Source: Candidatus Woesebacteria bacterium GW2011_GWA1_39_21 (GTDB taxonomy: Bacteria > Patescibacteriota > Microgenomatia > UBA8517). Taken from it: a stretch of DNA of 64,000 nt. A model generated the notes under the pieces. It searched no databases and was not told where the DNA came from. It saw only the letters and a list, made by a program, of their open reading frames with translations. Below are positions 33,177 through 57,451 of this stretch, piece by piece (positions within the stretch are counted from its first letter, which is position 1; each line of letters opens with the position of its first letter). Location: assembly GCA_000993685.1 (NCBI GenBank), contig LBWP01000001.1:9739-73738 (forward strand), read 5' to 3'. Both the position numbers and the translations under genes were made by a program.

Positions 33177-34952
33177 TTGATATTAAGTCATAATAGTCAT
33201 AAATATATGCCTGCCCAACCATTAAATGCTCAGAATGACCAGAATTTTTCAAACGTAGTCAAAACGTTAGCCGACATTTTACTTCTTCAGGGTTCGATTT
33301 CCCAAGAGCAGTCAAGGCAAATAAAATTTACTGAAATTCAAACCGGCAAAACCCAAGAGGAAATTGTTTTGGAGCAAGGATTTGTCGCAGAAGCGGATCT
33401 GGTTCGTGCAAAATCTAATTTGTACAATATTCCCTTTTTGGATTTGGAGACGACACCAAGTTCGCCGGAAGCTCTGTCAATCCTCCCCCAACAGGTGGCA
33501 CAGCGGTTTAGGGTATTTCCCATTTCTATTGATAAGAACTCAAAAATTCTCAACTTAGCGATGGCTGACCCTCTTGACTTAACAGCAGTTGGCTTTATCG
33601 AGCAAAAAACCGGCTATCGTGTCAAGCCCTACGCTTCGCAGCCCACCAAAATCGACACGCAGGTTACGGCGGCGTATTCGAGCTCTTTAGCTAAAGAGGT
33701 TACGGAAGCGCTCAAAGAAGTTGCTCCAGAAAAAAGACTTATCCAGGTTGTTGATAGTGGTCGCACAAGTGTCGTCCGTGAAGAAAAAGTTTCGGAAATT
33801 GTCAAACAAATTTTGAGTTTTGCTGTGAAATCGCGTGCATCAGACATCCATATTGAACCGCAAGAAAAATCGACACGTGTTCGATATCGTATCGACGGAA
33901 TTTTGCAGGAGAAATTGACCACCCCCAAGGAGCTTCACGATGGGCTTGTCTCGAGAATCAAAATCCTGTCGGGGATGAAGATTGATGAAAAACGTGTTCC
34001 CCAGGATGGTAGATTTAATTTTTCCGCGGACAATGAAGAGGTTGACCTTCGTGTATCAACCCTGCCGACCACCTGGGGGGAGAAAATTGTGATCAGGCTT
34101 TTGAAGAAAACCGGAGGGATTCCTGATCTGACAGAACTTGGACTTCGTGGCCGGGCGATGAAACACCTTGAGGATGCGATTGTCAGACCGCATGGGATTA
34201 TTTTGATTACTGGTCCGACGGGTTCAGGTAAGACGACAACACTTTATTCAATTATCCAGAGGATTAACACTCCAAAGGTCAACATTATGACACTGGAGGA
34301 TCCGATTGAGTATAAAATTGCCGGCGTCAATCAGGTGCAGGTTAATCCGGGGGCTGGTTTGACATTTGCTTCAGGATTGCGATCTTTTTTGAGGCAGGAT
34401 CCTAACGTAATTCTTGTTGGTGAAATTCGTGATCAGGAAACAGCTGACCTTGCCGTTCAGGCATCGCTCACTGGTCATTTGGTATTTTCTACTCTTCACA
34501 CGACCGATGCCTCGGGCGCACTTCCGAGGATGTTAGATATGGGTGCGGAACCTTACCTTCTCGCCTCGTCGATTACCGCAATTATGGCACAGAGAGTCTT
34601 AAGAAAAATTCACACGGCCTGCAGGATTGATTACACACCCGATGAAAAAGTCGTAATGGAAATTAAAAAAACCTTAGGGAATTTATGGAAACCAGATACG
34701 GGTGTAAAATTCTATAAAGGTCAGGGTTGCAACGAATGTGGAAACTCCGGATATTATGGCCGTGTTGGAATTTTTGAGGTCTTGCCTGTTTCCGAAAAAA
34801 TTAGTAGGCTTATATTAGAGCGTTCTTCTTCGGCTGAAATTGAAAACACTGCCAAAGAAGAAGGTATGGTTACAATGAAGCAGGATGGTTATATGAAGGT
34901 TATTGATGGGATGACGAGTCTCGAAGAAGTTCTGCGCGTTGCGCAAGAATAA
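33177..34952 (+). CDS. pilB: Type IV pilus assembly ATPase PilB (GspE family)
   Basis: It has an N-terminal T2SSE_N domain, Walker A GPTGSGKTTT, Asp and His boxes and a tetracysteine CNECGNSGYYGR. Confidence 0.93.
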   Translation: MILSHNSHKYMPAQPLNAQNDQNFSNVVKTLADILLLQGSISQEQSRQIKFTEIQTGKTQEEIVLEQGFVAEADLVRAKSNLYNIPFLDLETTPSSPEALSILPQQVAQRFRVFPISIDKNSKILNLAMADPLDLTAVGFIEQKTGYRVKPYASQPTKIDTQVTAAYSSSLAKEVTEALKEVAPEKRLIQVVDSGRTSVVREEKVSEIVKQILSFAVKSRASDIHIEPQEKSTRVRYRIDGILQEKLTTPKELHDGLVSRIKILSGMKIDEKRVPQDGRFNFSADNEEVDLRVSTLPTTWGEKIVIRLLKKTGGIPDLTELGLRGRAMKHLEDAIVRPHGIILITGPTGSGKTTTLYSIIQRINTPKVNIMTLEDPIEYKIAGVNQVQVNPGAGLTFASGLRSFLRQDPNVILVGEIRDQETADLAVQASLTGHLVFSTLHTTDASGALPRMLDMGAEPYLLASSITAIMAQRVLRKIHTACRIDYTPDEKVVMEIKKTLGNLWKPDTGVKFYKGQGCNECGNSGYYGRVGIFEVLPVSEKISRLILERSSSAEIENTAKEEGMVTMKQDGYMKVIDGMTSLEEVLRVAQE

Positions 34953-34995: not shown

Positions 34996-36057
34996 ATGAG
35001 TATCAAAGATTTGTTGGAGTTGACAATCCAAAGGCGTGCATCTGACCTGCATATTATTTGCGGTTTACCACCATACTTGAGAATTGAGGGTGTTTTAGCT
35101 CCGGTGAATAGCGCCCCAATTGTTACGCAAGATGTTGTCGACAAATATCTGAGGGAGATCCTTTCAGCTGATAACCTTGAACGATTTTATGTCAACAAGG
35201 AGCTTGACTTTTCACTGGCGTTTTCGGCCAAGGCCAGGTTTAGAGTGAACGCTTATACACAAAAGAATCAATTTGCAATTTCATTCAGGATGATTCCAAT
35301 CGAGATCTCGGCGGTCGATGATTTGGGACTTCCGAAAATCGTCCACTCATTTGCAAATTTGCGGCAAGGATTCATTCTTATAACCGGTCCGACTGGACAT
35401 GGTAAGTCAACAACGCTTGCGGCAATTCTAAACGAGATTAACCAAATCAGGGCTTGTCATATCGTTACAATTGAAGACCCAATTGAATTTGTCTTCAGAC
35501 CGAGAAATTCAATTATTTCTCAAAGAGAAATGGGTTCAGATACACTTTCTTGGCAAGTTGCACTTCGAAGCGTGCTTAGGGAAGACCCTGACGTTGTTAT
35601 GGTGGGAGAAATGCGTGATTATGAAACGGTGTCCGCTGCTCTAACGATTGCAGAAACCGGGCATTTGGTTTTTGCTACTCTGCATACTAACTCTGCTGCG
35701 CAGACGATTGACAGGATTGTTGATGTTTTTCCCGATGAGCAGCAAAAGCAGGTAAAACTTCAAATGTCAAATGTTATCGAAGCTGTGTTTTCAATGCGCT
35801 TAATTCCTGCAGTGTCTGGCGACAGAGTTGTTGCATACGAAGTAATGTTGGGAACGTCAGCTGTTAAAAGTTCTATTAGGGAAGGCAAGACGCACCAAAT
35901 TGATAACATTCTACAAACTTCGACTGAAGTGGGAATGAATACACTTGAAATGTCTTTGGCGTCACTTGTAAAAACCGGAAAGGTGACTTTTGAGACGGCA
36001 CAATCCTTCTCGTTGAGACCTGAAGAGCTAACAAGACTTGTACGTTCGAGTAAGTGA
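34996..36057 (+). CDS. pilT: Type IV pilus retraction ATPase PilT
   Basis: It has Walker A GPTGHGKSTTL and REDPDVVMVGEMRD and is about 350 aa, which is typical of PilT. Confidence 0.9.
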   Translation: MSIKDLLELTIQRRASDLHIICGLPPYLRIEGVLAPVNSAPIVTQDVVDKYLREILSADNLERFYVNKELDFSLAFSAKARFRVNAYTQKNQFAISFRMIPIEISAVDDLGLPKIVHSFANLRQGFILITGPTGHGKSTTLAAILNEINQIRACHIVTIEDPIEFVFRPRNSIISQREMGSDTLSWQVALRSVLREDPDVVMVGEMRDYETVSAALTIAETGHLVFATLHTNSAAQTIDRIVDVFPDEQQKQVKLQMSNVIEAVFSMRLIPAVSGDRVVAYEVMLGTSAVKSSIREGKTHQIDNILQTSTEVGMNTLEMSLASLVKTGKVTFETAQSFSLRPEELTRLVRSSK

Positions 36058-36114: not shown

Positions 36115-37320
36115 ATGAAAAGATTCAAATACAGGGCAAGAACAACCACGGGCGAAGTTGTTAAAGGTGAAGTTGAAGCCACAAGCGACAAGATCGCCGC
36201 TAAACTTCTGAAAAGAAAAGGATACATCATCGTTTCCATTAAACCTAAAGCCGAGTTTATTATTGATATTACAAGAAAATTTAGAGACAGAGTAACTTCA
36301 AAGGATGTCGCAAATTTTACAAGACAGTTAGCAACGATGATGAATGCGGGACTTCCGATCACCGAGTCCTTGTTAATTTTAAGAAACCAATCAACGGGAA
36401 GGCTTCAAGTAATTTTAACCGAAATTCTAAATGATGTCGAAGGTGGACACTCTCTATCATCATCGCTTGAAAAGTATCCTTCGGTTTTCAATAAGACATA
36501 TGTTGCGCTTATTAAATCGGGCGAGATCGGCGGTGTTTTGGATGCAGTATTGGCAAAACTATCCGACAGTTTGGAAAAGCAACAGGAGTTTTCAGGTAGA
36601 GTGAAAGGTGCAATGGTTTACCCTTCAATAATCGTTATTGGAATGCTAATTGTGACCTTTATCATGCTTGTCTTTGTAATCCCACGTTTGACCTCGCTGT
36701 ATGACCAGTTTGATGCAGAGCTTCCGATAACGACAAAGTTGCTTCTTGCTGTTTCTGATGCGGTGAGTAAATACTGGTATTTGGTAATTGGAGCGGGTGT
36801 GGCGATATACTATATGTTTAAACTCTATATCAAAACGAAGACCGGAAGAAAAAAATTTGACGAATTTAAATTTAAAATCCCGCTTATTGGCAGTTTACAG
36901 AGGCAAGTGATTTTAACTGATTTGACGAGAACGATTTCGCTGATGGTTGGATCGCGCGTCTCGATTCTTGAAAGTTTGTACATTACCTCCGAAGTGGCAG
37001 ATAACTCGATTATTTCTGAAGCCTTAATTGATGCCGGAAAAATGGTTGAAAAAGGTTTTCCCGTCGCTTTCTCTTTTGCAAAACATCCGGAGGCGTTTCC
37101 GCCAATCCTCTCTCAAATGATCTCCGTTGGAGAAGAAACGGGAAAAATGGATGAGGTTTTGGATAAAATATCTCATGTTTTTGAAAGTGAGAGTGACCAG
37201 AAATTGAAGGCAATCACCGCGGCAATTGAACCAATTATTTTAATCTTTTTAGGTGTTGGCGTAGCATTTTTAGTCATTTCGGTGATCATGCCGATCTACA
37301 ATTTGACATCGCAAATTTAA
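36115..37320 (+). CDS. pilC: Type IV pilus inner-membrane platform protein PilC (GspF family)
   Basis: A duplicated T2SSF domain is present with three TM segments. Confidence 0.9.
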   Translation: MKRFKYRARTTTGEVVKGEVEATSDKIAAKLLKRKGYIIVSIKPKAEFIIDITRKFRDRVTSKDVANFTRQLATMMNAGLPITESLLILRNQSTGRLQVILTEILNDVEGGHSLSSSLEKYPSVFNKTYVALIKSGEIGGVLDAVLAKLSDSLEKQQEFSGRVKGAMVYPSIIVIGMLIVTFIMLVFVIPRLTSLYDQFDAELPITTKLLLAVSDAVSKYWYLVIGAGVAIYYMFKLYIKTKTGRKKFDEFKFKIPLIGSLQRQVILTDLTRTISLMVGSRVSILESLYITSEVADNSIISEALIDAGKMVEKGFPVAFSFAKHPEAFPPILSQMISVGEETGKMDEVLDKISHVFESESDQKLKAITAAIEPIILIFLGVGVAFLVISVIMPIYNLTSQI

Positions 37321-37403
37321 TCTAAAAACTTTGTCTATATTATTGCTGGCGCTTCATTAAAAATTTAAAATTGAAAATTGAAAATTGGTTTGCCCCTCTC
37401 CCC

Positions 37404-37430
37404 TTGACAGGCCATGTCCTTTTGTACAAT
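37404..37430 (+). promoter_or_regulatory. Sigma70-like promoter with an extended -10 (TTGACA, 15-nt spacer, TG-TACAAT) upstream of the first pilin gene
   Basis: CTTGACAGGCCATGTCCTTTTGTACAAT. The element is preceded by CCCCTCTCCCC and tandem AAATTGAAAATT repeats. The leader to the ATG at 37589 is about 160 nt. Confidence 0.5.
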
Positions 37431-37588
37431 ACTGAATATGGTTAATCAGACTTACGAAATTCGAAATATTGGATTTGAAGTTTGAATCGTTTCGACAACA
37501 TTTATGTTGGGTTCCAATTTCGAATCTAGTATTTTCAAAAATTAACCTACTGAGAGGGGGTGAAACTTACAAAGTTTTATAAACTATT

Positions 37589-38116
37589 ATGAAAAAGATA
37601 TATAAAGGCCTGACTACGCAGGCAGGTTTCACACTTATTGAGCTTCTGATTGTCATGGCAATTCTTGGTGTTTTAGCGGTTGTTGTCCTTGTTGCAATCA
37701 ATCCGGTTCAACAACTCGCAAGAACGCGTGATGCTGGAAGAAAAGCCGGTGTCGCCCAAATCGGTAGAGCATTGGAGGCTTACTATACTTCTCATAGTGG
37801 AAGCTATCTTCCTCTTTCGGACACGTTCTTAAATAGTCTTTCTACTTCGGGAGAGATTTCAACTCCTCCCAGTACGATATCATACAGAAGCGGATTTACA
37901 CCCCAAGCATGCATCAACAGTCAGAATGGGTGGTGTTATCTTATGGGTTCGGGAGAAGCCGTTTTATATACGGAATTGGAATCTGATTCGGAAAGAAGTA
38001 AATGTAGCGGTGTGGTCTCTTACTTTGTGTGGTCGACTGTTGACGGTCGTGGAGGATTGGTTTGTACAAATGTTGCAGCAGCTGGAACAGCTCAAACATG
38101 GAGCGCCCAGCAGTAA
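37589..38116 (+). CDS. pilA: Type IV pilin (prepilin with a G|FTLIELL class III signal), paralog 1
   Basis: MKKIYKGLTTQAG|FTLIELLIVMAILGVLAVVVLVAINP, with Glu at +5. The conserved C-terminal region contains LESDSERSKC...VWST.DGRGGLVC. Confidence 0.88.
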   Translation: MKKIYKGLTTQAGFTLIELLIVMAILGVLAVVVLVAINPVQQLARTRDAGRKAGVAQIGRALEAYYTSHSGSYLPLSDTFLNSLSTSGEISTPPSTISYRSGFTPQACINSQNGWCYLMGSGEAVLYTELESDSERSKCSGVVSYFVWSTVDGRGGLVCTNVAAAGTAQTWSAQQ

Positions 38117-38146
38117 CTTATTCTTAATTAGTTGAGAATAAAAATA

Positions 38147-38179
38147 ATGAGCCTGTGATAAAGCAGGCTCATTTATTTT
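38147..38179. terminator. Bidirectional intrinsic terminator between pilin 1 and the convergent GT-C gene
   Basis: ATGAGCCTG-TGATAAAG-CAGGCTCAT is followed by TTTATTTT, and by an A/T run on the other strand. Confidence 0.6.
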
Positions 38180-40037
38180 GTTCCCCAGGAGGAAGTGTCG
38201 AAAGGATGGGGTCGGTGAGGATGGATTTCACAAGGAATGACCCGTATAATTCTTCATCCTTATAATAATATTTCATAAAAAGTGCTATATTCTTGTATCC
38301 TATTGAGTAATATCTTTTCATATTTGTAAGACTGAAGCTGTAACCCACAACATCCTTGTAGGAATCATATTCTCCCAAAAGGAAATTATTGTAAATTTCA
38401 TCCTGGGCGGTTACGTAATCTTCTTTTTTGGGTACCGATTCGGCCCCAACAACAAAGTGATACACCAATCCGTGAGGTATTGTGCCCAATTTCTTATCCT
38501 GGTCATTCACGATGACCCTGGGTACAGTTGAATAAATGTTATACCCCCTTCTTATGAGATTGACGATGCAGGAATATAATGTTTCCTGATCGATCGTGTT
38601 TCTGTTTTTAATAAGATAAGTCTTTGCCTGATCGGGGTTCATGGTACCTGATTCTACAAGAAATTTCTCAAAACCGGTGTTTCTTCCGGGGATGGTGATA
38701 TCCGGTCGGAAATTTTCTTCAAGTTGGATATATAGAGTATTGAATGCAAATTCATCGTTATCAACGAATAGGAAACTTTTATTTTCCAATGGCCCCAGTA
38801 CGTCTTTTGCAAGGTTATTGCCGATGTAAATGTCGGATAGATCGGTCTTCGGGTAATTTGCAATGAAATATGATATCGGAACTAAAGCGAATGCGGCCAG
38901 CGTCAATGGATAAAATAAACGGTATAAAGGCCTCCTTTTGATGATTTTATTAAGTAATTTTGTTAATAACAAAATACCGGGACCGGAAAAAAGCAAAAGA
39001 AAAATTACGGAAGGAATGTAAAATCTTTCGATTGTTGAAATGTTAGCAAGGCTTTTGGTTTCAACTTTTGCGTAAAAAATATAAAAAGGACCGATAAAAA
39101 AAAGTGCAGTCAGTAAATAAAATAATAAAAGGCGTCTTTTTTGTTTTAGAAAATAGATTACGCCCAAAACGAAAGCAAAAGGAATAATCGGATTTAAATA
39201 CTCCTTCCAATATATGTAATAAGAATGAAAATCGTTTACAAACATGAATGGTCTGTTCTCCGTATCGATCCATCCATAGTCCTTTCGTAATATCAGATAG
39301 AGTAAATTTTTGGCCGTGACAGCCCGATCCCAGTTAACTATCGGATTTTGTGCTGCAGCTATAGGTATGTAAAGATACGGTAACAGACCCAGGATGAATA
39401 AAAATATGCAAGTCAATATTAATTTTAAATCTTTCAGGATTTTAATGTCTGTAAATAAGACCGAGAGTCCAACTGCAGGAAACATAAGCAAAACTGTCAT
39501 GTTATTTGTGAGCGATAAACCGAGGAAGAAAGACAGCGGGTACAAAAGTCTGTTTTCTTTGCTAATTATAAACTTGATTGTGATAAGTGAGATTAGAAGG
39601 ATAAAAAAAAAGTGGAGGGAAAAGACTTCTGCAACCTCTGCGTATATCCAAAAAGGATAGATAAAAGCAAGAATTAAACTTATAATAATCGATATTATTT
39701 TATTTTTTGTTAGTGTTAGTGAGATTAGATAAGTTAAGATAATGGAGAGCGATGCAAATAATGAAGATATCAATCCGACTCTCCAGGCTACTGTATGTCC
39801 CAATGGAAGTGAGTTAAAGGTAATCCCAAGAAGTATATAAAGTGGATATCCCGAAGGATGTGGAACGCCTTTTGAAATGATCGCTGAAAGAAAGTCTCCC
39901 GAATCGCCAGCAAACACGCCAGGACAAATTCCGTTAACGTATATCAAAAAAGTCGATAAAAACAAAAACAATACAATAAAATGCCCAGACAGAAACTTAA
40001 GAAGAATCTTTGTTTTACTTATTTTTTTTACTACCAT
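38169..40037 (-). CDS. DUF2723/TMEM260-like GT-C-fold membrane glycosyltransferase (putative protein O-glycosyltransferase)
   Basis: The 622-aa protein has more than 12 TM helices. The N-terminal loop GDSGDFLSAI...GVPHPSGYPLYILLG matches the WDSGEF...HPPGYPLY signature of DUF2723/GT117. Confidence 0.55.
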   Translation of the reverse strand: MVVKKISKTKILLKFLSGHFIVLFLFLSTFLIYVNGICPGVFAGDSGDFLSAIISKGVPHPSGYPLYILLGITFNSLPLGHTVAWRVGLISSLFASLSIILTYLISLTLTKNKIISIIISLILAFIYPFWIYAEVAEVFSLHFFFILLISLITIKFIISKENRLLYPLSFFLGLSLTNNMTVLLMFPAVGLSVLFTDIKILKDLKLILTCIFLFILGLLPYLYIPIAAAQNPIVNWDRAVTAKNLLYLILRKDYGWIDTENRPFMFVNDFHSYYIYWKEYLNPIIPFAFVLGVIYFLKQKRRLLLFYLLTALFFIGPFYIFYAKVETKSLANISTIERFYIPSVIFLLLFSGPGILLLTKLLNKIIKRRPLYRLFYPLTLAAFALVPISYFIANYPKTDLSDIYIGNNLAKDVLGPLENKSFLFVDNDEFAFNTLYIQLEENFRPDITIPGRNTGFEKFLVESGTMNPDQAKTYLIKNRNTIDQETLYSCIVNLIRRGYNIYSTVPRVIVNDQDKKLGTIPHGLVYHFVVGAESVPKKEDYVTAQDEIYNNFLLGEYDSYKDVVGYSFSLTNMKRYYSIGYKNIALFMKYYYKDEELYGSFLVKSILTDPILSTLPPGEQNK

Positions 40038-40816
40038 TTCTTAATGAGGAATAGGTTATTAATATATATCGATTTGGAAGAATAGTAGTTTTCTACAAGG
40101 ACGGCTAGATACGATAATAAAAGTAAGGGAATGTATAAAGGTAAAGTCAGAAAGTAGTATAGTTTGTTTTTTTGATTTAATTCAACCAAATAGTTCTCCA
40201 ATAAAGTTTCAATTGCAGATAATAAACCACCTTGTTTTTTATAATAGTGCAGCCGGCAATGGTGGAGTTTGATGAGCCGGTCAAATGTATAACGCGTAAA
40301 CCTGAAATGATCATTCGGTTCTTCATGAAGAGCCCAGAGAAAGGGTGCAGTTATTAATAAGTATCCATTTCTTTTTAATATTCTAACCATTTCATCAAAT
40401 AGTATAAACGGGTCAGTAACATGTTCAAATACCTGGAAAGCACAGACAATATCAAAGGTATTATCCTGGAAAGGGAGCTTTCCAACGAGTTTATAATTTT
40501 CAGGAAAGTATATGTTTGGTTCATCTTTAATATTTACACTTTTATTCGGTGAGAAATTGGGAAAATCAATACCTAGGTATTTTGTATTTTTAAATAAAAA
40601 TTTATATGGTTTTTCTCCGCAACCAACATCCAGTAATTTTCCTTTTAGTTTATATTTTTTAACAACATATCCGATGTCTTTGCGCAAGAAATATCTTTGT
40701 GAAAAATGAGGTATTGTATAAAAAAGAAATTCATCTGTGAGGCTTTTACTCATATAATGTTTGTGATGTAAATAGTTTACAGTTAAAATCAGATTAATGA
40801 AAATAGCATTTTTCAC
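40031..40816 (-). CDS. Class I SAM-dependent methyltransferase
   Basis: Motif I is LLDVGCGEKPY, followed by ILKRNGYLLITAP. Confidence 0.75.
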   Translation of the reverse strand: MKNAIFINLILTVNYLHHKHYMSKSLTDEFLFYTIPHFSQRYFLRKDIGYVVKKYKLKGKLLDVGCGEKPYKFLFKNTKYLGIDFPNFSPNKSVNIKDEPNIYFPENYKLVGKLPFQDNTFDIVCAFQVFEHVTDPFILFDEMVRILKRNGYLLITAPFLWALHEEPNDHFRFTRYTFDRLIKLHHCRLHYYKKQGGLLSAIETLLENYLVELNQKNKLYYFLTLPLYIPLLLLSYLAVLVENYYSSKSIYINNLFLIKKW

Positions 40817-41954
40817 TTATACCAGACTCGAATATGGAGGCGGTGTTGCAAAATACTATATCGAGACGGCCTCAGGTTTAGCGAAAAGATATAAGAATTT
40901 GAAGATCGATATTATTAGTTTTGAAAAAAAGACGTTAAGAAAATTTCTTTTATTATATTTTTTATATTTTTTCGGGAAGCAGGATATGGACCAAAAAGAT
41001 AAGGAAAATATTATTTCGATCAAGAAAAAATTGGGCTTCGCCGGTTACTATCAATACAATTTTAAAAGTTTACTTAAAAAACTTAAAGGTTACGATTTGA
41101 TTTATACGACTAACAATTTATTGGAGGTTATGCTATTTAAATATTTGATTGGTTACCGACATATACCGCCTATTGTTTATGGATTCCACATCCCCATGTA
41201 TTATGAGTTTACCAGTTCACTGCAATCGAAAATTCATAATTTACTATATCGATCGCCATTATATATTAAGGCTCTGAAGGGAGCTAAAGTACTTCATGTG
41301 ATGAATACCTTTGATGAAGATATTATTAAAGATAAGTTTAATATTCATAATGTCAAAAAGATCTATTATGCGTTTAATTTTGATCAATTCGCAAAAGTTG
41401 TCTTTGAATATAAACCTCCTTACAAATGGAATAAACTCCGAACAAATATTTTATGGACAGGAAGGTTGACCGAACAGAAAGGCATAGATAAACTTTTTGA
41501 GATAATCGAAGGTGTTAATGCCGGAAAATGCGGTAAAAAAATTATATGGAATATATTTGGCGACGGTGAGCTTAAAGACAGGGTTCGCGCATTTTCATTG
41601 AAGCATAAAAATGTCAGTTTTTTTGGATACGTGGAAAATCGTTTTATGGCAGACATTATGAACAAATGCGATTTTTTTATTTCAACAAGCAATTGGGAAA
41701 GCTTCCCGTATAATATCTTAGAAGCACAGGCTTTCGGACTCCCTGTTGTTTGTTTTGATATCAGTGGTTGCAATGATATTGTTAAGGATGGGGTAAATGG
41801 ATATCTGGTAACCGACACCGCCGAATTTAAAAAACGGATTAACGATATTGTTATAAAAAATAAGTTTAAAAAAGAGAAGATACGAAATTATATTGTTTCG
41901 CGATTTAATTTCGAGGATTTGTTTTCGAAAATGTATCGATTATTCACAGAATGA
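40797..41954 (+). CDS. Glycosyltransferase family 4 (GT-B, retaining)
   Basis: A C-terminal GT1/GT4 domain is present (GRLTEQKGIDKLFE). The E-x7-E region is FPYNILEAQAFGLPVVCFDISG. Confidence 0.85.
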   Translation: MKIAFFTYTRLEYGGGVAKYYIETASGLAKRYKNLKIDIISFEKKTLRKFLLLYFLYFFGKQDMDQKDKENIISIKKKLGFAGYYQYNFKSLLKKLKGYDLIYTTNNLLEVMLFKYLIGYRHIPPIVYGFHIPMYYEFTSSLQSKIHNLLYRSPLYIKALKGAKVLHVMNTFDEDIIKDKFNIHNVKKIYYAFNFDQFAKVVFEYKPPYKWNKLRTNILWTGRLTEQKGIDKLFEIIEGVNAGKCGKKIIWNIFGDGELKDRVRAFSLKHKNVSFFGYVENRFMADIMNKCDFFISTSNWESFPYNILEAQAFGLPVVCFDISGCNDIVKDGVNGYLVTDTAEFKKRINDIVIKNKFKKEKIRNYIVSRFNFEDLFSKMYRLFTE

Positions 41955-42457
41955 AAAAATATAATTTAGGTTGCGGTAAAAAGTATATCAAAGGTTACAT
42001 CAACGTAGATGTAACACGGTCTGTTAAGGCAGACCTCTATTTCAATTTAAATAAATTCCCTTACCCAATTAAAAAGAAATCGGCTGACGAGGTTTTGATG
42101 GATAACGTTCTTGAACACTTGGATGATGTAGTATTGGTTATGGAAGAAATATATCGGATTCTAAAGCCAGGTGGTATTGTTAAAATTTATTTGCCTTATG
42201 CGAAGTCGGACGGTGCTTTGCAGGACCCTACACATAAACATCTGTTTACAGAAAAAAGCATGGATTATTTTAGACAAGATGATAAATATAATTATTATAC
42301 AAATGCAAAATTTCGTATATTGGTGAGTAAACCTTTTAACGCAAATAAAACACTCTTAAGTAAAATGCGAGTCTTTATCCCATTCAAACCTGTTCTCAAA
42401 TATTTCTTATTAAATATTTACGATGGTTTATATTTCGAAATGAAAGCGGTTAAGTAA
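41951..42457 (+). CDS. Class I SAM-dependent methyltransferase (Methyltransf_11-like)
   Basis: KKYNLGCGKKYIKGYINVDV...LEHLDD...ILKPGGIV. Confidence 0.75.
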   Translation: MKKYNLGCGKKYIKGYINVDVTRSVKADLYFNLNKFPYPIKKKSADEVLMDNVLEHLDDVVLVMEEIYRILKPGGIVKIYLPYAKSDGALQDPTHKHLFTEKSMDYFRQDDKYNYYTNAKFRILVSKPFNANKTLLSKMRVFIPFKPVLKYFLLNIYDGLYFEMKAVK

Positions 42458-43367
42458 TTGTCGATTTTGGGTTTTTTGAAGAGGTAACAATCTTCCACAC
42501 ACTATGGTCACGAAGTTTGTAAGTTACATCAAGATAACCAAAAATTCTCGCAATAATTTCCAGAATAACAGTAAATGCAGAAAAGATAAGTTCTTTGGCG
42601 TTGAAATTTAGTGTTGATAAAAATACGGGTAATATTAAAAAGTTAGAGAAAGTTATCACCTCATAGCCGTAATGGAGTTTTGTTTCATAATGCCCGGCAA
42701 AGATTCTTCGCCTTTGGCTTAAGAGTTCCCTGATCGTTTTCGGACCGCTATTGTAAACAATGGCTTTCTCTTCATAAATAACTTTATAATCCTGGAGTTT
42801 GATTAACGGCTCAATACTTGCTTCGTCAACGGCGGTATTTGGGGGAATCCGTTTGAAAACCTTTTTAAATGCTATCAACTCACCTACTTTTGGCCGTTCC
42901 GGAAATTTGAGATTAACAAGATGATGAAGTTTCCACTTTAGTTGGTTTGCGAAACCGCAAAATGTGTCCGGATTATCTGTTGGAATCACTTTGCCGCCGA
43001 CCATTCCGACACTTTTGTTCTTTAATTTATTCAAGAGTAGGAAATAGCATTTTTTATCTAATATCGTGTCAGCGCTTTGGAGTATCAGATATTTAGATTT
43101 TGCATATTTGATGAACAAGTTGACTGCCTTGGCTTTTCCTTCTCTGTTTACCTGAATAATCAGTCTGATTTTTTTATTTTTCTTTTTAAGCTTCTTGATA
43201 ATACTTACGGTATTATCCGTGCACCCCGACGCAATAATTAAAATCTCTCTAATCGAAAATTCGCTACCCAGCTCTTGTTTAGTAATTGATTTTATTAAAT
43301 TAGTAATATTTTCTTCTTCATTATAGGCGCAAATACCGATACTGAAATGAATTTTTACTTTTTCCAT
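42450..43367 (-). CDS. Glycosyltransferase family 2 (GT-A)
   Basis: FSIGICAYNEEENI...ASGCTDNT plus a DxD-like QSADTILD. Confidence 0.85.
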   Translation of the reverse strand: MEKVKIHFSIGICAYNEEENITNLIKSITKQELGSEFSIREILIIASGCTDNTVSIIKKLKKKNKKIRLIIQVNREGKAKAVNLFIKYAKSKYLILQSADTILDKKCYFLLLNKLKNKSVGMVGGKVIPTDNPDTFCGFANQLKWKLHHLVNLKFPERPKVGELIAFKKVFKRIPPNTAVDEASIEPLIKLQDYKVIYEEKAIVYNSGPKTIRELLSQRRRIFAGHYETKLHYGYEVITFSNFLILPVFLSTLNFNAKELIFSAFTVILEIIARIFGYLDVTYKLRDHSVWKIVTSSKNPKSTIT

Positions 43368-43470
43368 AAAATTAAAACAATTCTAACATATAAATTTCGT
43401 GTATTGAGTTTTGAAAAAAATGTGTGTCATAATGAACATGTAGTCTTTTCTTTTGTAAGGGGGTGAAAGA

Positions 43471-44100
43471 ATGAATAAACGTTATATTAAAGGACCAGAG
43501 GCGGGCGGATTTACGCTAATAGAGCTTCTTATTGTCATGGCGATCCTCGGTGTTTTAGCGGTTGTTGTCCTTGTTGCAATCAATCCGGTTCAACAACTTG
43601 CAAGAACTCGTGATGCAGGAAGAAAATCCGGTGTTTCTCAAGTTGGACGTGCTTTAGAAGCATTTTATACTTCCCATGGGGGAAAATATTTGTATGGAAG
43701 GACAGCTGGTTCAAATCCTGGTACCAACTGTAACACAGACGGTAACCAAGTTTTTTCTGATGCTGACGACTGGCTAACATGTTTAGTAAATACAGGAGAA
43801 ATTTCAACAGAACCAGGATTGATTAATTACTCTGTAGCTGGAACTGGTGTATGTACAATAGGGGCTCAATATTCATCGGAACAAAATGGTCTATGTTATA
43901 CGGTTAGTTCAGCTGACGATGAAGCTGTTGTTTATGCCAGGCTCGAATCTGACTCCGAACGAAGTAAATGTCCAGACTCAGGTGGGCCTTTCCAACCATT
44001 TTTTGTTTGGTCGACACGTGATGGTAGAGGTGGGTTGGTTTGCATAGCAGGCATCAATGTTCCAGCCCCAGGTGCACAAAATTGGAACCCGCAACAATAA
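43471..44100 (+). CDS. Type IV pilin, paralog 2
   Basis: MNKRYIKGPEAGG|FTLIELLIVMAILGVLAVVVLVAINPVQQLARTRDAGRK. It has a 50-nt stretch of perfect DNA identity with paralog 1 (GGTGTTTTAGCGGTTGTTGTCCTTGTTGCAATCAATCCGGTTCAACAACT). The central region has diverged. Confidence 0.88.
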   Translation: MNKRYIKGPEAGGFTLIELLIVMAILGVLAVVVLVAINPVQQLARTRDAGRKSGVSQVGRALEAFYTSHGGKYLYGRTAGSNPGTNCNTDGNQVFSDADDWLTCLVNTGEISTEPGLINYSVAGTGVCTIGAQYSSEQNGLCYTVSSADDEAVVYARLESDSERSKCPDSGGPFQPFFVWSTRDGRGGLVCIAGINVPAPGAQNWNPQQ

Positions 44101-44102
44101 AA

Positions 44103-44633
44103 ATGCGCGATAACAAGAGAGGTTTTACTCTGATCGAGCTATTGATAGTCATCGCGATATTGGGAATACTTGCGGTGATTATATTAGTAGTCATGAATCC
44201 CGGCGAAAGACAGGCCCAAGCCCGGGATACGGGTAGGATTTCCTCAGTTACACAAATTGGAAGGGCGCTGCAAGCGTACTATACGACAGAATCGTCTTTC
44301 CCCGACGTTGCAAATTGGGCGAATGATTTGGTGACGTCGGGTGAATTATCAACGTTTCCGGCAGGGGTAGCCTACACTTATAATTCAGTTACTGCCTGTG
44401 AGAGTTATCTCCAGCCTCTGACCGATGGTACGTATTGTTATGATGAAGATCAAGCGAATAATAATGGGGCTTTAATCTTTGCAAAGGCGGAATCAACGAC
44501 TTATCGTAGCAAATGCACATCTCCAGAAGAAGCATATTTTGTTTACTCAACCGAGGATTCTCGAGGCGGGACGATTTGTAGTCTTGGTGACCCGGTGCCC
44601 TGGGCAGGCGGAAGCATGAGCTATCAGAATTGA
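44103..44633 (+). CDS. Type IV pilin, paralog 3
   Basis: MRDNKRG|FTLIELLIVIAILGILAVIILVV. The start is taken at the internal Met of the 44040 ORF, 2 nt after the paralog 2 stop. Confidence 0.8.
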   Translation: MRDNKRGFTLIELLIVIAILGILAVIILVVMNPGERQAQARDTGRISSVTQIGRALQAYYTTESSFPDVANWANDLVTSGELSTFPAGVAYTYNSVTACESYLQPLTDGTYCYDEDQANNNGALIFAKAESTTYRSKCTSPEEAYFVYSTEDSRGGTICSLGDPVPWAGGSMSYQN

Positions 44634-44697
44634 TATAGTCCTTCTGAATTATTGCAGGTTGTTCACAAGCAGCGAACGACTTGTGTATACTTAATTA

Positions 44698-45513
44698 ATG
44701 TCTGAAATCTTTCTGATAGTCTCCCTTGCTCTTTTTGGATTAGTTTTCGGCTCTTTTATCACAGCTCTATCTTATCGCAGTATACGCGGTGTAAGTATTT
44801 TTAAAGGAAGATCTCTCTGCCCTCTATGTAAAAAGAAAATTTCTTGGAGTGACAATATTCCAATCATTTCCTATTTGTCACTGAATGGTAAGTCGCGTTG
44901 TTGTGGAAAACCAATCTCTTGGCGCTACCCTTTGATCGAATTTTTTACAATGTTGACTTTTTTGTTAATCGGCCTCGTCTATACAAATTGCAGCACTGTA
45001 ACTCCGCCGTTATGCGTACTTAACAACACCTTTTCTTTTTTAGTTCTCCCCTATCTACTTCTGATTTCGCTTTTTTTAATTACCGTTTTTATAACTGACT
45101 TTGAGCACAAGATTATCCTTGACGAATTTATATTTATTCCTTACGGGCTCACACTACTGTTGTTGATTTTTTTTAACCCGGAGTTTTCGTACACTAATAT
45201 TTTCTTATCGTTTACTTGCGCAGCATTTCTTCTTTTGGTCCATTTAATTACTCGTGGAAAAGGGATGGGTCTTGGTGATGTCAAACTTGCACTTCTGCCG
45301 CCATTGATTCTCGGTTGGCCATTTACTTTGCCATGGCTATTTTTGTCTTTTATCATCGGCGCTTTGGTAGGTGTAATTTTGATGCTTATGAAAAAGGCAA
45401 AATTTGGAAAACAAATTCCATTCGGGCCGTTTTTGATTTTAGCCTTCTTTTTAGTATTATTCTGGGGTGATAAATTGATGTTTTTATTTGGTTTTTTGAC
45501 ACTCTCACCGTGA
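44698..45513 (+). CDS. pilD: Prepilin peptidase PilD (A24 family)
   Basis: An N-terminal tetracysteine (CPLCKKK...CCGKPISWRYPLIE) and a polytopic C-terminal A24 domain are present. Confidence 0.9.
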   Translation: MSEIFLIVSLALFGLVFGSFITALSYRSIRGVSIFKGRSLCPLCKKKISWSDNIPIISYLSLNGKSRCCGKPISWRYPLIEFFTMLTFLLIGLVYTNCSTVTPPLCVLNNTFSFLVLPYLLLISLFLITVFITDFEHKIILDEFIFIPYGLTLLLLIFFNPEFSYTNIFLSFTCAAFLLLVHLITRGKGMGLGDVKLALLPPLILGWPFTLPWLFLSFIIGALVGVILMLMKKAKFGKQIPFGPFLILAFFLVLFWGDKLMFLFGFLTLSP

Positions 45514-55310: not shown

Positions 55311-57326
55311 TTAGTTTAATCCAATTTCTTCACCAAGTACGTGATTAAGTAATTTTTTGTATTTACTGCGGTTGACAATGATACGGTCGGCATATCCTTT
55401 TGCGAGTTTAATCAGTTTGGTATCTTCCCATGAGGCATTTTTCAACTCGTAGAATCCGTGTTGGGCTGTCCCAAAGATTTCTCCGGGACCCCTGATTTTC
55501 AGATCGATTTCGGCAAGTTCAAATCCCGAGTTGTGAGATTTTAATGCGGCCAATCTTTTTGAGACATAACGGTCGTATTTTGTTGGAAGCAGGAGGCAAT
55601 ATGACTTTTTGCTACCGCGCCCGACACGTCCTCGCAATTGATGTAGTTGTGCCAATCCGAATCTTTCCGCGGCTTCTACAATCATAATTGTGGCATTGGC
55701 AATATCGATACCGACTTCGACAACAGGAGTTGAGACAAGGATATCGCTTTTTCCTTCTTTAAAACGCTTGATAGCAAGGTCCTTTTCCGCCGGTTTCATT
55801 CTTCCATGCAGGATATCGACACGATAGCCCTTAAAAATTTTTTTGAGTGATTCGAATTCGGCGACGACTGCCCGTACCGATTTAAGTGTTTCGGCTTCCG
55901 ACTCTTCAATCAAAGGACAAATATTGAAAACCTGAATATGTTCATTCTTGATTTGTTTTTTGATCCAATCGTATGCAGGTGACCTTTTTTTTGACGGGAC
56001 AATCCAGGTGGTGACAGGTTTTCTTCCCACGGGTAGTTCGGTAAGAAGCGACAAATCAAGATCGCCGTAGATTGTCAGCGCAACAGTTCTTGGAATTGGT
56101 GTTGCTGTCATAGTTAAGACGTGTGGAATTTTGTTGCCACTCCCCGACTGTTTAATCAGGTGCGTCCTTTGTTCAACTCCGAAACGATGCTGTTCGTCGA
56201 TGACGATAATTCCAACTTGCTCGCTATCAATAATTCTGTGGATAAGTGCATGTGTTCCAACAAAAACGTCAGTTTTGCCAAGGTCACCCTTTTTTGTATT
56301 CGAAGTGATTAGTTTGACTCTGATTTTGTATTTTTCAAAAAGCTTGTTAAGGGTTTCGAAATGTTGGTTTGCCAGGATTTGTGTTGGCGCCATCACAATG
56401 GATTGATATCCGGCAAGAAATGTTGCAAAAATACCAATAGCCGCGACGACGGTTTTTCCGCTTCCAACATCACCTTCGAGAAGTCGATTCATCGGTGTTT
56501 CTTTCGTGAGGTCGGTTAATATTTCTTTGACGCTTTTTTCCTGTGACAATGTGAGCATAAAGGGAAGGTTTTTGATAAACGTGTCAATCTGACTACTATT
56601 GACCTTGATTTTGTAAAGAGCGATGTTTTCTTTCCAACGCTCTTTGCGATACGTGCTGCGAATTGTCAAAGTGAGAAGCTCATTAAACGCCAATCGTTTC
56701 TTAGCGTTTAGATACTCGTCTTCATTTTCAGGAAAGTGAAGCTTATGAATTGCAGCTTCGTAATCCATCAACGAATATTTTTGAAGATCGGTTACAGGTA
56801 TAAAGTCTACAATTTCCGGTTTTGAAACCTGCAGTGCGAAAGCAATTTTTGTACGGAGCCATTTTGACGACACGCCGTATGTTTCTGGATATATTGGAAT
56901 GAGTCGACCGGTGTGGATTGAACCAGCGCCGAGTTCATAATCTGGAGCAATAAAAGCTTTATCGGATCCAAAAAATTCGATCTTTCCTGCAAACCAATAT
57001 TCAATTTTTCGCTTCAGGCTCATCATCAGGTAGGGTTGGTTAAACCAAATGATTTTCATTTTCCCACTTGTGTCTTCGATTTCGGCTAATTGCATAACTT
57101 TTCCGGATTTGGTGTATTGGTTTCGTATGAAATTTAACTTGGCCTTCACAGATGCAATATCACCAATCCTTAGTTTCGCAATCGGTTTTGTTTTTCGGTA
57201 GTCAAGATATCTACTTGGGGGGTGTGTTAACAAATCGGAAATTTTTGCAATCCCCAGTTTTTCAAGTCTTTTTAAATAAACAGGGCCGATTTTTGGCAAT
57301 CTTGAGACTGGATTAGACAATTTCAT
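55311..57326 (-). CDS. recG: ATP-dependent DNA helicase RecG
   Basis: A wedge domain precedes a DEAH helicase core with GDVGSGKT, DEQHRFG and the QLRGRVGR motif VI. The start is taken at ATG (MKLSNPVSRLPKIGP). The ORF track extends it to a TTG inside repeat copy C. Confidence 0.9.
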   Translation of the reverse strand: MKLSNPVSRLPKIGPVYLKRLEKLGIAKISDLLTHPPSRYLDYRKTKPIAKLRIGDIASVKAKLNFIRNQYTKSGKVMQLAEIEDTSGKMKIIWFNQPYLMMSLKRKIEYWFAGKIEFFGSDKAFIAPDYELGAGSIHTGRLIPIYPETYGVSSKWLRTKIAFALQVSKPEIVDFIPVTDLQKYSLMDYEAAIHKLHFPENEDEYLNAKKRLAFNELLTLTIRSTYRKERWKENIALYKIKVNSSQIDTFIKNLPFMLTLSQEKSVKEILTDLTKETPMNRLLEGDVGSGKTVVAAIGIFATFLAGYQSIVMAPTQILANQHFETLNKLFEKYKIRVKLITSNTKKGDLGKTDVFVGTHALIHRIIDSEQVGIIVIDEQHRFGVEQRTHLIKQSGSGNKIPHVLTMTATPIPRTVALTIYGDLDLSLLTELPVGRKPVTTWIVPSKKRSPAYDWIKKQIKNEHIQVFNICPLIEESEAETLKSVRAVVAEFESLKKIFKGYRVDILHGRMKPAEKDLAIKRFKEGKSDILVSTPVVEVGIDIANATIMIVEAAERFGLAQLHQLRGRVGRGSKKSYCLLLPTKYDRYVSKRLAALKSHNSGFELAEIDLKIRGPGEIFGTAQHGFYELKNASWEDTKLIKLAKGYADRIIVNRSKYKKLLNHVLGEEIGLN

Positions 57327-57343
57327 TAAGATTATGATAACAC

Positions 57344-57451
57344 TTATAACAGCGTTCAAGAAAACCCCACCCTTCAGGGTGGGGATGAATTGAACTCTGA
57401 TATGTCATCCTCCTTGGGGAAACCCCGTCTTTTAAGGCGGGGAGGATGTCA
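57344..57451. repeat. Composite multi-hairpin repeat, copy C (16 nt upstream of the recG start)
   Basis: It has the same sequence as copy B with one substitution. Confidence 0.85.

What the first reader, a model, noticed from the sequence alone, without database searches (positions are those of the whole stretch)
37589..44100. Paralogous major pilin genes share a 50-nt perfectly identical core despite synonymous divergence elsewhere: signature of gene conversion or antigenic variation
Pilin 1 (37589..38116) and pilin 2 (43471..44100) encode near-identical N-terminal helices and conserved C-termini (ESDSERSKC...VWST.DGRGGLVC). Their central regions have diverged. At the DNA level the segments flanking the helix differ at many synonymous sites. 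For example GGTTTCACACTTATTGAGCTTCTGATT contrasts with GGATTTACGCTAATAGAGCTTCTTATT. However a 50-nt block, GGTGTTTTAGCGGTTGTTGTCCTTGTTGCAATCAATCCGGTTCAACAACT, is identical in both. That pattern fits recent recombination between the copies rather than purifying selection alone. Both genes have their own extended -10 promoters (TG-TACAAT and TGT-CATAAT) and a shared GGGGGTGAAA leader motif. A third, more divergent pilin follows pilin 2 at a 2-nt spacing.
Basis: seen in the sequence. Interest (0 to 1): 0.6.

Follow-up and report, generated by a model that had tools for sequence, protein, structure and literature searches.

The report
Short gene conversion between pilin paralogues
Two type IV pilin genes 5.9 kb apart in a groundwater Woesebacteria (CPR) genome have swapped a 50-78 nt stretch of DNA that encodes their shared, invariant N-terminal helix; this is ordinary gene conversion with no effect on the protein, not an antigenic-variation system.

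Summary
Pilin 1 (37589-38116) and pilin 2 (43471-44100) share an exact 50-nt block (37667-37716 = 43549-43598), although synonymous sites are saturated everywhere else between them.

Orthologous p1/p2 pairs from seven related genomes decide the cause. All encode the same helix, but its synonymous sites differ freely between species. In the block region the window's p1 and p2 are 96% identical to each other and only 77-82% identical to their own orthologues. The flanking segments group by orthologue. So the block reflects gene conversion between the paralogues, not codon or nucleotide constraint.

The same homogenisation recurs in other genomes (exact permutation P = 0.0009; 0.007 without the window genome). 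It is confined to the helix-coding DNA.

The antigenic-variation reading is not supported:
- the tract lies in sequence that is identical at the protein level;
- both genes are complete and have their own expression signals;
- there is no G4 motif;
- thirteen assemblies of the same population show no central-region mosaics.

Two short contigs with foreign 5' parts joined at the edges of the helix-coding DNA remain unresolved; they may be recombinants or assembly chimeras.

Verdict: a clean but ordinary case, a new member of a known kind, of low interest.

The parts
37589..38116 (+). Pilin 1 (p1): prepilin of 175 aa with leader MKKIYKGLTTQAG|FTLIE. It is monocistronic, lying between its own promoter and a terminator.
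   Evidence: ORF and translation. PF07963 and TIGR02532 score above their cut-offs. The AF2 model has pLDDT 88.7, with a long helix (residues 16-68) and a 4-stranded sheet. Orthologues sit in the same position after pilC in 11 other genomes.
43471..44100 (+). Pilin 2 (p2): prepilin of 209 aa, 54% identical to p1, with the same first 40 mature residues and larger central insertions.
   Evidence: P0113 is 54% identical over 100% coverage. Orthologues are present in 7 other genomes.
37667..37716 (+). Core of the conversion tract in p1: 50 nt identical to p2 (codons 27-42 plus 2 nt).
   Evidence: Exact match. Run tests. dS 0.07.
43549..43598 (+). Core of the conversion tract in p2: 50 nt identical to p1.
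   Evidence: The positions are invariant in all population contigs that cover them.
37667..37744 (+). Extended low-divergence tract in p1 (78 nt; its partner is 43549-43626). There are only 3 synonymous differences, at 37717, 37726 and 37735. It is bounded by differences at 37666 and 37745.
   Evidence: List of differences. Identity is 96% over mature codons 15-40, against 77-82% to orthologues. dS 0.16.
37625..37807 (+). 183-nt homologous segment in p1 (partner 43507-43689, 83% identity, spacing 5,882 nt) encoding the shared N-terminal helix. This is the substrate for recombination.
   Evidence: the repeat finder family D1.
43507..43689 (+). The partner copy of the 183-nt homologous segment, in p2.
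37404..37433 (+). Promoter-like site of p1: TTGACA-18 nt-AATACT. About 155 nt of 5' UTR follows.
   Evidence: Scan. CTTGACA and ATACT are invariant in 12 p1 upstream regions.
37556..37563 (+).
   Evidence: Invariant in 12 orthologues. A potential hairpin at 37562-37578 lies between it and the ATG.
43404..43433 (+). Promoter-like site of p2: TTGAGT-18 nt-CATAAT with an upstream TG (extended -10).
   Evidence: Scan. TGTCATAATGA is conserved in most p2 orthologues.
43459..43466 (+). Shine-Dalgarno GGGGGTGA of p2, 4 nt before the ATG.
   Evidence: GG[GA]GGTGA in all 8 p2 genes.
44103..44633 (+). Pilin 3: a more divergent paralogue lying 2 nt after p2. It is not involved in the conversion.
38169..43367 (.). 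Glycosylation/methylation cassette separating p1 from p2: TMEM260-like GT-C (38169-40037, -), methyltransferase, GT1, methyltransferase and GT2.
   Evidence: Pfam. The gene content varies between relatives, and the cassette is absent in L180.
38146..38173 (.). Bidirectional terminator-like hairpin between p1 and the convergent TMEM260-like gene.
44698..45513 (+). Prepilin peptidase (A24), downstream of pilin 3.
   Evidence: Pfam.

Best explanation
What it is. p1 and p2 are ancient paralogous type IV pilin genes. Both are kept in the same positions of the pilus locus in related Woesebacteria. Their first 40 mature residues, the hydrophobic assembly helix, are held identical by strong purifying selection.

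What happened. This keeps about 180 nt of DNA at roughly 80% identity in direct orientation, 5.9 kb apart. In the lineage of this genome a short non-reciprocal homologous-recombination event (gene conversion) copied at least 50 nt, and probably about 78 nt, of one copy over the other. That erased the synonymous differences in the tract.

Consequences. The two templates already encoded the same residues, so the event is silent at the protein level and most likely neutral. It is fixed in the sampled population. Similar events have happened independently in other genomes of the family, so the helix-coding segment evolves partly in concert while the rest of each gene diverges.

Shown versus inferred. 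Shown: the tract, its limits, its absence in orthologues and its recurrence. Inferred: the enzymology (RecA-type strand invasion with heteroduplex repair), the neutrality, and the donor, which could not be determined.
For: 1. Age of the paralogues. Synteny pilB-pilT-pilC-p1-[cassette]-p2-p3-pilD is shared by the window, L014, L015, L016, L097, L177 and L182. L180 has p1-p2-p3 in tandem. The duplication is therefore older than these species.

2. Identity patterns. In mature codons 15-40, W_p1/W_p2 are 0.96 identical, W_p1 to other p1 genes 0.77-0.82, and W_p2 to other p2 genes 0.77-0.79. In codons 1-14 and 41-62 the sequences group by orthologue; for example TTC/CTT/ATT in p1 against TTT/CTA/ATA in p2.

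3. Run length. The 50-nt run exceeds all 317 between-genome pairs encoding the same peptide (maximum 39, 95th percentile 23).

4. GENECONV-style column permutation. There are 20 consecutive concordant polymorphic sites out of 94, P = 0.001. This is the best of 120 pairs.

5. dS is 0.07-0.16 inside the tract and saturated outside it.

6. Recurrence. Exact permutation of genome labels gives within-genome p1-p2 identity in codons 15-40 of 0.851 against 0.791, P = 0.0009 (0.007 without the window). Codons 41-62 show no effect (P = 0.73). The L014 pair is 0.92. The L180 pair is 0.98 and 0.91, and its p2 carries the p1-type synonymous signature.

7. Not an assembly artefact. The same sequence appears in 13 contigs from different samples and assemblers.

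8. Recombination machinery. A RecG helicase gene lies in the window at 55311-57359. Short-tract RecA-dependent conversion between bacterial paralogues is established for the Salmonella tuf genes (PMC5485169).
Against: - The tract is short. After Bonferroni correction over all 120 pairs, the column-permutation P is 0.12; it is 0.008 if only the 8 within-genome pairs are counted.
- Only eight genomes have both paralogues, and they are not phylogenetically independent.
- The present flanks offer only 8-11 nt exact runs. Other genomes' pairs have runs of 11-23 nt. That is short for efficient RecA-mediated exchange, so the event must be rare.
- The three synonymous differences in 37717-37735 need either later mutation, two events, or patchy heteroduplex repair.
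- The donor is undetermined.
- Whether recA is present in this genome could not be checked from the window.
Confidence: 0.8

Rival explanations
1. Nucleotide-level purifying selection. The 50 nt would be kept identical because the DNA or mRNA itself carries a function, such as codon choice for membrane insertion of the helix, an RNA structure, or a binding site for a small RNA or protein.
For: The block encodes the hydrophobic helix, where translation kinetics and membrane targeting could matter. The run of identical codons is non-random.
Against: - The same 40 residues are encoded in 26 genes from 18 related loci with freely varying synonymous sites. Between-genome identity in codons 15-40 has median 0.78 and maximum 0.91, no higher than in the flanking codons 1-14 (median 0.79).
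- The window's block is not shared with any orthologue.
- Pilin 3 and the minor pilins use other codons.
- Rfam finds nothing in the region.
Confidence: 0.04
2. A programmed pilin antigenic-variation system of the Neisseria pilE/pilS type. Conversion between the copies would generate mosaic surface-exposed pilins.
For: - Several pilin paralogues sit in one locus, and their central regions have diverged.
- Conversion between the copies does occur.
- Two short contigs join pilin 1 sequence to foreign 5' parts at the edges of the helix-coding DNA: L183, and P0122.
- L003 has a 4-nt slippage deletion in the pilin 2 leader.
Against: - The tract lies wholly in the invariant helix and changes no residue.
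- There is no excess within-genome similarity in the variable part (segment C, P = 0.73).
- Both copies are complete, each with promoter, SD and leader.
- There is no G4 motif.
- The 13 population contigs and all 90%-cluster members show no central-region mosaics.
- The p1 and p2 orthologues are stable across eight genomes.
Confidence: 0.05
3. Chance. The two ancient paralogues would simply happen to use the same codons over 16 residues.
For: Several of the block's codons are among the locally preferred ones, such as GTT, GGT, AAT and CAA.
Against: Shuffle P is 0.001-0.002. Codon-usage draws give about 1e-8. None of 317 comparable between-genome pairs reaches 50 nt. A family-wide excess remains even without this genome (P = 0.007).
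Confidence: 0.03
4. Assembly artefact. Reads from one copy would have been used to build the other copy in the metagenome assembly.
For: The window derives from a metagenome-assembled genome. Short repeats can confuse assemblers, and the odd short contigs (L183, P0122) exist.
Against: - The sequence is identical at both loci in contigs from ENA, JGI and other assemblies of different samples made with different assemblers.
- A 50-nt repeat is shorter than the reads and k-mers used (k127, k141).
- Flanking differences lie within 1 nt of the block on each side and are reproduced everywhere.
Confidence: 0.01

Closest known systems
Interparalogue gene conversion / concerted evolution in bacteria (for example tufA/tufB of Salmonella, and rRNA operons)
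   Same: Sequence is transferred non-reciprocally between dispersed paralogues in one chromosome. The paralogues are more alike than the orthologues within the tract. Synonymous sites are homogenised, and the events recur over evolutionary time (mechanism as described in PMC5485169; survey in PMC6053082).
   Different: - Here only about 50-78 nt of a 530-630 nt gene is homogenised, whereas tuf genes are kept nearly identical over about 1.2 kb.
- The substrates are only about 80% identical, and the rest of each gene is free to diverge.
- Pilins are never mentioned in the main text of the 2018 survey of long-lasting concerted evolution, PMC6053082 (0 occurrences of 'pilin', 'pilus' or 'fimbria').
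Neisseria pilE/pilS pilin antigenic variation
   Same: The genes are type IV pilin paralogues, and the mechanistic principle is gene conversion between them.
   Different: - In Neisseria, by my own knowledge, the donors are promoterless silent cassettes that lack the 5' constant region. Conversion transfers the variable region and depends on a G4-forming element upstream of pilE.
- Here both genes are complete and have expression signals, the tract is in the constant region, no G4 motif exists, and the population is monomorphic.
Multiple major pilins in CPR bacteria (Nanosynbacter lyticus TM7x, two distinct T4P)
   Same: A CPR bacterium encodes several pilin paralogues together with one set of PilB/T/C/D/M components. 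Distinct pilins can build distinct filaments used for host contact and motility (abstract of PMC11623550).
   Different: That work is functional and concerns Saccharibacteria. Nothing here shows which of p1 or p2 is assembled. I found no description of conversion between such paralogues.
Pilin glycosylation islands next to pilA (for example TfpO/TfpW of Pseudomonas aeruginosa; from my own knowledge)
   Same: A membrane glycosyltransferase gene sits directly beside the major pilin gene, accompanied by a variable set of sugar-modifying genes.
   Different: The adjacent enzyme here is a TMEM260-like (DUF2723) GT-C protein. No paper in the library links DUF2723 to pilins. Glycosylation of these pilins is an inference only.

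Membership tests
Type IV pilin (class III signal peptide proteins) | Short basic leader ending in Gly, followed by Phe+1 and Glu+5, with the N-methylation motif | tested here: met
   The leaders are MKKIYKGLTTQAG|FTLIE and MNKRYIKGPEAGG|FTLIE. PF07963 scores 32.1 and 26.6 bits against a cut-off of 21.2. TIGR02532 scores 33.3 and 28.9 bits against a cut-off of 16.3.
Type IV pilin (class III signal peptide proteins) | Long N-terminal alpha-helix packed on a beta-sheet head domain | tested here: inconclusive
Type IV pilin (class III signal peptide proteins) | C-terminal disulfide-bonded loop (D-region) | not testable with these tools
   Cys139 and Cys159, and also Cys108 and Cys116, are invariant in 20 p1 orthologues. 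Formation of the bonds cannot be tested.
Type IV pilin (class III signal peptide proteins) | Encoded alongside a prepilin peptidase and PilB/PilT/PilC-type machinery | tested here: met
   T2SSE x2 and T2SSF lie upstream. Peptidase A24 is at 44698-45513. PilM and a PilO-like gene lie downstream.
Interparalogue gene conversion (concerted evolution) | Within the tract, paralogues of one genome are more similar to each other than to their orthologues | tested here: met
   0.96 against 0.77-0.82. The 50-nt run exceeds all 317 between-genome pairs.
Interparalogue gene conversion (concerted evolution) | Outside the tract, orthology is retained, giving a mosaic phylogenetic signal | tested here: met
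   Segments A and C group by orthologue and carry diagnostic synonymous sites. Column permutation gives P = 0.001.
Interparalogue gene conversion (concerted evolution) | The similarity extends to synonymous sites, so it is not explained by protein-level selection | tested here: met
   dS is 0.07-0.16 inside the tract and saturated outside it. The same peptide is encoded with different codons in other genomes.
Interparalogue gene conversion (concerted evolution) | Dependence on homologous recombination (RecA) | not testable with these tools
   The organism is uncultured. Only RecG is seen in the window.
Neisseria-type pilin antigenic variation | Silent, promoterless, 5'-truncated donor cassettes | tested here: not met
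   Both genes have a promoter-like site, an SD, a start codon and a leader peptide, and these are conserved in orthologues.
Neisseria-type pilin antigenic variation | Conversion tracts cover the variable, surface-exposed region | tested here: not met
   The tract covers mature residues 15-40, which are invariant in all genomes. There is no within-genome excess in codons 41-62.
Neisseria-type pilin antigenic variation | A G-quadruplex-forming initiator near the expression locus | tested here: not met
   A regular-expression search for four G runs of 3 or more found 0 hits on either strand of 37000-45000.
Neisseria-type pilin antigenic variation | Mosaic pilin alleles within a population | tested here: inconclusive
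   The 13 contigs and all 90%-cluster members lack central-region mosaics. However, L183 and P0122 join pilin 1 to foreign 5' sequence at the edges of the helix DNA. Reads were not available.

The most novel reading that the evidence does not exclude
The invariant helix-coding DNA could be more than a passive target of silent conversion. It might serve as a general crossover 'handle' through which CPR pilin genes exchange modules, that is, promoter and leader on one side and the globular domain on the other, within or between genomes.

In favour:
- Contig L183 is 533/533 nt identical to pilin 1 from the Gly-1 codon onward, but has an unrelated promoter and leader upstream.
- Protein P0122 is identical to pilin 1 from codon 48 onward, with a foreign N-terminus.
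- Conversion recurs in several genomes.

A crossover between the two direct repeats would also delete the 5.9-kb glycosylation cassette and fuse the p1 promoter to the p2 head domain.
Probability: 0.12. Interest if true: 0.5.

Novelty: new member of a known kind. Interest (0 to 1): 0.22.

Why it matters
The practical value is modest.

- It gives a well-controlled example of short-tract gene conversion in an uncultured, small-genome CPR bacterium. It acts on substrates only about 80% identical, and it recurs across a family of Woesebacteria. This shows that homologous recombination between dispersed repeats operates in these organisms.
- It is a caution for phylogenies and for dN/dS or recombination scans of pilin families. 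The N-terminal helix DNA does not carry a clean orthology signal.
- It removes a tempting but unsupported reading, antigenic variation.
- The conserved arrangement (two major-type pilins with identical assembly helices flanking a variable glycosylation cassette) and the structured pilin 1 leader may interest people who work on CPR pili more than the conversion tract itself.

Tried and rejected
- Donor direction. I looked for p1- or p2-diagnostic synonymous states inside the block. GTT19, ATC25 and CAA30 lean weakly towards p2, but mean identities to the p1 and p2 orthologues are equal. The direction is left undetermined.
- Rfam search of 37250-44750 gave only two chance-level hits.
- Search for the origin of the foreign leader of P0121/L183. 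BLAST against the window and all 180 or so fetched loci found nothing. A protein search with leader plus helix returned 10 short proteins, none with that leader.
- The P0122 contig could not be fetched because the look-ups were exhausted.
- A possible upstream ORF starting at GTG 37560 and overlapping the pilin 1 ATG was considered. I rejected it because there is no usable SD spacing and the frame is not conserved in L014 or L016 (read).
- Conversion involving pilin 3 was considered, because L016 p3 and L014 p3 have p1/p2-like Met11. The nucleotide sequences are not alike, so this was rejected.
- Literature searches found no description of pilin-paralogue conversion in CPR and no DUF2723-pilin link.

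Full report
**What is there.** The window comes from a groundwater Candidatus Woesebacteria (CPR/Patescibacteria) genome. The exact pilin 1 protein is annotated in GW2011_GWA1_39_21. The region is a type IV pilus locus, in this order:
- PilB-like ATPase (33177-34952), PilT-like ATPase (34996-36057) and PilC (36115-37320);
- pilin 1 (37589-38116);
- a convergent/divergent cassette: a TMEM260-like GT-C glycosyltransferase (38169-40037, minus strand), two methyltransferases, a GT1 and a GT2 (to 43367);
- pilin 2 (43471-44100), then pilin 3 two nucleotides later (44103-44633);
- a prepilin peptidase (44698-45513), minor pilins, PilM and a PilO-like gene.

All three pilins have a class III leader ending in Gly, followed by FTLIE. 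They pass the Pfam and TIGRFAM N-methylation models. An AlphaFold model of pilin 1 (pLDDT 88.7) shows a long N-terminal helix and a four-stranded sheet. Structural matches to solved pilins were not significant.

**Checking the observation.** It occurs nowhere else in the window. It lies inside a 183-nt direct repeat of 83% identity with 5,882-nt spacing. The two proteins are 54% identical overall, and aligned nucleotides are 64% identical.

Three within-genome tests show the run is more than chance.
- Of 110 aligned codons that encode the same degenerate residue, only 60 are identical. Sixteen of them form one uninterrupted run. Shuffling gives P = 0.0011, or 0.0021 within the N-terminal domain.
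- Independent draws from local codon usage would give the run with probability about 1e-8.
- Nei-Gojobori dS is 0.07 for codons 27-43 and 0.16 for codons 27-52. In every other segment the synonymous difference is too large for the correction to be computed.

**Distinguishing conversion from constraint.** I fetched the same locus from related organisms. Seven further genomes carry both paralogues, six of them in the same positions. In the seventh (L180) the cassette is missing and p1, p2 and p3 are in tandem. The duplication therefore predates these species.

All sixteen genes encode essentially the same first 40 mature residues, but with freely varying codons. The segment-by-segment comparison shows the following.
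- In mature codons 15-40, the window's two genes are 96% identical to each other. Pilin 1 is only 77-82% identical to other p1 genes, and pilin 2 only 77-79% identical to other p2 genes.
- In codons 1-14 and 41-62, the sequences group by orthologue and carry diagnostic synonymous states. For example, the close p1 genes have TTC-ACA-CTT-ATT, and the p2 genes have TTT-...-CTA-ATA.

Three cross-genome tests agree.
- Across 317 between-genome pairs encoding the same peptide, the longest in-register identical run has median 12, 95th percentile 23 and maximum 39 nt. The window pair has 50.
- A GENECONV-style permutation of the 94 polymorphic columns gives P = 0.001 for the window pair (20 consecutive concordant sites). 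That is the strongest of all 120 pairs. Bonferroni correction gives 0.12 over all pairs and 0.008 over the eight within-genome pairs.
- The block is therefore not conserved between species, yet it is nearly identical within this genome.

This is the signature of gene conversion. It excludes codon- or nucleotide-level constraint as the main cause.

**Tract limits.** The core runs from 37667 to 37716. Upstream, differences resume at 37666, 37663 and 37660. Downstream there are only three synonymous differences (37717, 37726, 37735) before the first replacement at 37745 and dense divergence after it. The event probably covered about 78 nt (37667-37744 / 43549-43626). Later point mutations or patchy repair would account for the three differences; alternatively a more recent 50-nt event overlies an older one. 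I could not tell which copy was the donor.

**Recurrence.** Within-genome p1-p2 identity in codons 15-40 is 0.96, 0.92, 0.79, 0.78, 0.83, 0.76, 0.91 and 0.85 in the eight genomes, against a mean of 0.791 for between-genome p1-p2 pairs. Exact permutation of genome labels gives P = 0.0009, and P = 0.007 when the window genome is left out. Codons 41-62 show nothing (P = 0.73), and codons 1-14 are borderline (P = 0.037). In L180 the tandem p2 carries the p1-type synonymous signature over the first 14 codons, which suggests a p1-to-p2 event there. The helix-coding DNA thus evolves partly in concert across this family, while the head domains diverge independently.

**Antigenic variation.** Nothing supports it.
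- The converted residues are invariant, so no protein change results.
- Both genes are complete. Each has a conserved promoter-like site, a Shine-Dalgarno sequence and a leader peptide.
- No G-quadruplex motif lies in 37000-45000.
- Thirteen contigs from different samples and assemblers are 99.4-100% identical to the window. In the pilins they carry one replacement SNP (43939 A>G, R157G in pilin 2), one synonymous SNP (44429, pilin 3) and one UTR SNP (37502).
- Members of the 90% clusters of the three pilins show no central-region mosaics.

**Two unresolved contigs.** Two items are odd and remain open.
- Contig L183 (667 bp) is 533/533 nt identical to the window from the Gly-1 codon (37624) to the terminator. 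Its first 134 nt are unrelated. They carry their own TTGACA...TACTAT site, no SD, and a different leader peptide.
- Protein P0122, on a 2.5-kb JGI contig, is identical to pilin 1 from codon 48 onward, with six foreign residues before that.

Both junctions sit at the edges of the helix-coding DNA. That is where a true recombinant and an assembler chimera would each be expected to break. I could not find the source of the foreign parts, and I have no reads.

**Mechanism.**
- Shown: a short non-reciprocal transfer between direct repeats 5.9 kb apart, fixed in the population and silent at the protein level.
- Inferred from established knowledge of bacterial gene conversion (the DSB-repair model for Salmonella tuf genes, PMC5485169): strand invasion by a RecA-type recombinase into the roughly 80%-identical paralogue, a short heteroduplex or synthesis tract, and resolution without crossover. 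A crossover would have deleted the cassette.
- Supporting detail: a RecG gene is present in the window.
- Substrate: strong purifying selection on the assembly helix keeps the two DNAs similar enough to recombine. The conversion itself is most likely a neutral by-product.

- The shared 'GGGGGTGAAA leader motif' is the ribosome-binding site. It is invariant upstream of all p1 and p2 orthologues, and reads GGAGGTGA in four p2 genes.
- For pilin 1, the bases conserved across twelve genomes are CTTGACA-18 nt-(A/G)ATACT (37404-37433), not TG-TACAAT.
- The pilin 2 extended -10, TGT-CATAAT, is conserved.

**Comparison with what is known, and verdict.** Interparalogue conversion and concerted evolution are well documented in bacteria (PMC5485169; PMC6053082, whose main text never mentions pilins). 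Pilin genes are the classic conversion substrates in Neisseria. This case meets the defining features of conversion and fails those of the Neisseria-type variation system. I found no prior description for CPR pilins, but it is a new instance of a known process, not a new kind of system. Interest is low. The residual novel possibility, module exchange through the helix DNA, depends on the two ambiguous contigs.

Noticed in passing
L183 (ENA ERZ27254846 k141_3147897), nt 1-667; junction corresponds to window 37624: This 667-bp contig is 533/533 nt identical to pilin 1 from the Gly-1 codon to the terminator. Its first 134 nt are unrelated: they have their own TTGACA...TACTAT site, no GGGGGTGA SD, and the leader MKLPSLPKALRSQQ. 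It is either a recombinant or an assembly chimera, and the source of the 5' part was not found.
   Followed up: partly
Protein P0122 (JGI, 2,488-bp contig, DNA not fetched); junction near window 37727-37730: A member of the pilin 1 cluster that starts MAVKPG and is then identical to pilin 1 from codon 48 (DAGRK...) onward. Its breakpoint is at the 3' edge of the low-divergence tract.
   Followed up: partly
window 37434-37591 (pilin 1 5' UTR): The leader is about 155 nt long and is conserved in L014, L016, L177 and L180. It contains a long hairpin (about 37463-37537) whose tip is deleted in L014 and L180, with 2 compensatory pairs. There is also a possible anti-SD pairing, ACCU (37545-37548) with GGGG (37556-37559). 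Only five sequences were compared, and there is no Rfam match.
   Followed up: partly
window 37556-37591: The pilin 1 SD (GGGGGTGA) lies 25 nt from the ATG, against 4 nt for pilin 2. A potential hairpin, GAAACUU-ACA-AAGUUUU (37562-37578), lies in between. Its stem is kept and its loop length varies in the close orthologues. It might bring the SD and the start codon together, or regulate translation.
   Followed up: partly
window 43500-43503 (L003, JGI 3300025030): One assembly lacks one GGCG unit of GGCGGGCG in the part of pilin 2 that encodes the leader peptide. This frameshift removes the leader and leads to a 187-aa gene call (P0125). It could be slipped-strand on/off variation or an assembly error.
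   Followed up: no
window 38169-43367, and L014, L015, L016, L177, L180, L181, L182: The cassette between p1 and p2 always begins with a TMEM260-like (DUF2723) GT-C glycosyltransferase next to pilin 1. Its other genes vary: a fused GT2-GT1, extra GT2 genes, methyltransferases, and an amine-oxidase-like gene in L177. It is absent in L180, and L181 lacks p2. This suggests a variable pilin-glycosylation island. No literature link between DUF2723 and pilins was found.
   Followed up: partly
window 43939: An A>G polymorphism (R157G in pilin 2, just before the conserved LESDSERSKC motif) is present in several assemblies (L001, L003, L004, L005; cluster representative P0113). It is the only replacement polymorphism seen in the three pilins.
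   Followed up: no
Protein P0134 (Logan, 12,476-bp contig; relative of L177 p2): A pilin 2 orthologue is frameshifted right after ...ARTRDA, within the GGAAGAAAA stretch at the 3' end of the invariant segment, which truncates it to 68 aa. This may be a sequencing error or a pseudogene.
   Followed up: no
window 38146-38173: An 11-bp stem with T runs on both sides forms a bidirectional terminator-like hairpin between pilin 1 and the convergent TMEM260-like gene.
   Followed up: no
window 55311-57359 (-) and 21131-22087 (+): A RecG helicase gene and a XerC/D-type tyrosine recombinase gene lie in the window. RecG is relevant as part of the recombination machinery.
   Followed up: no
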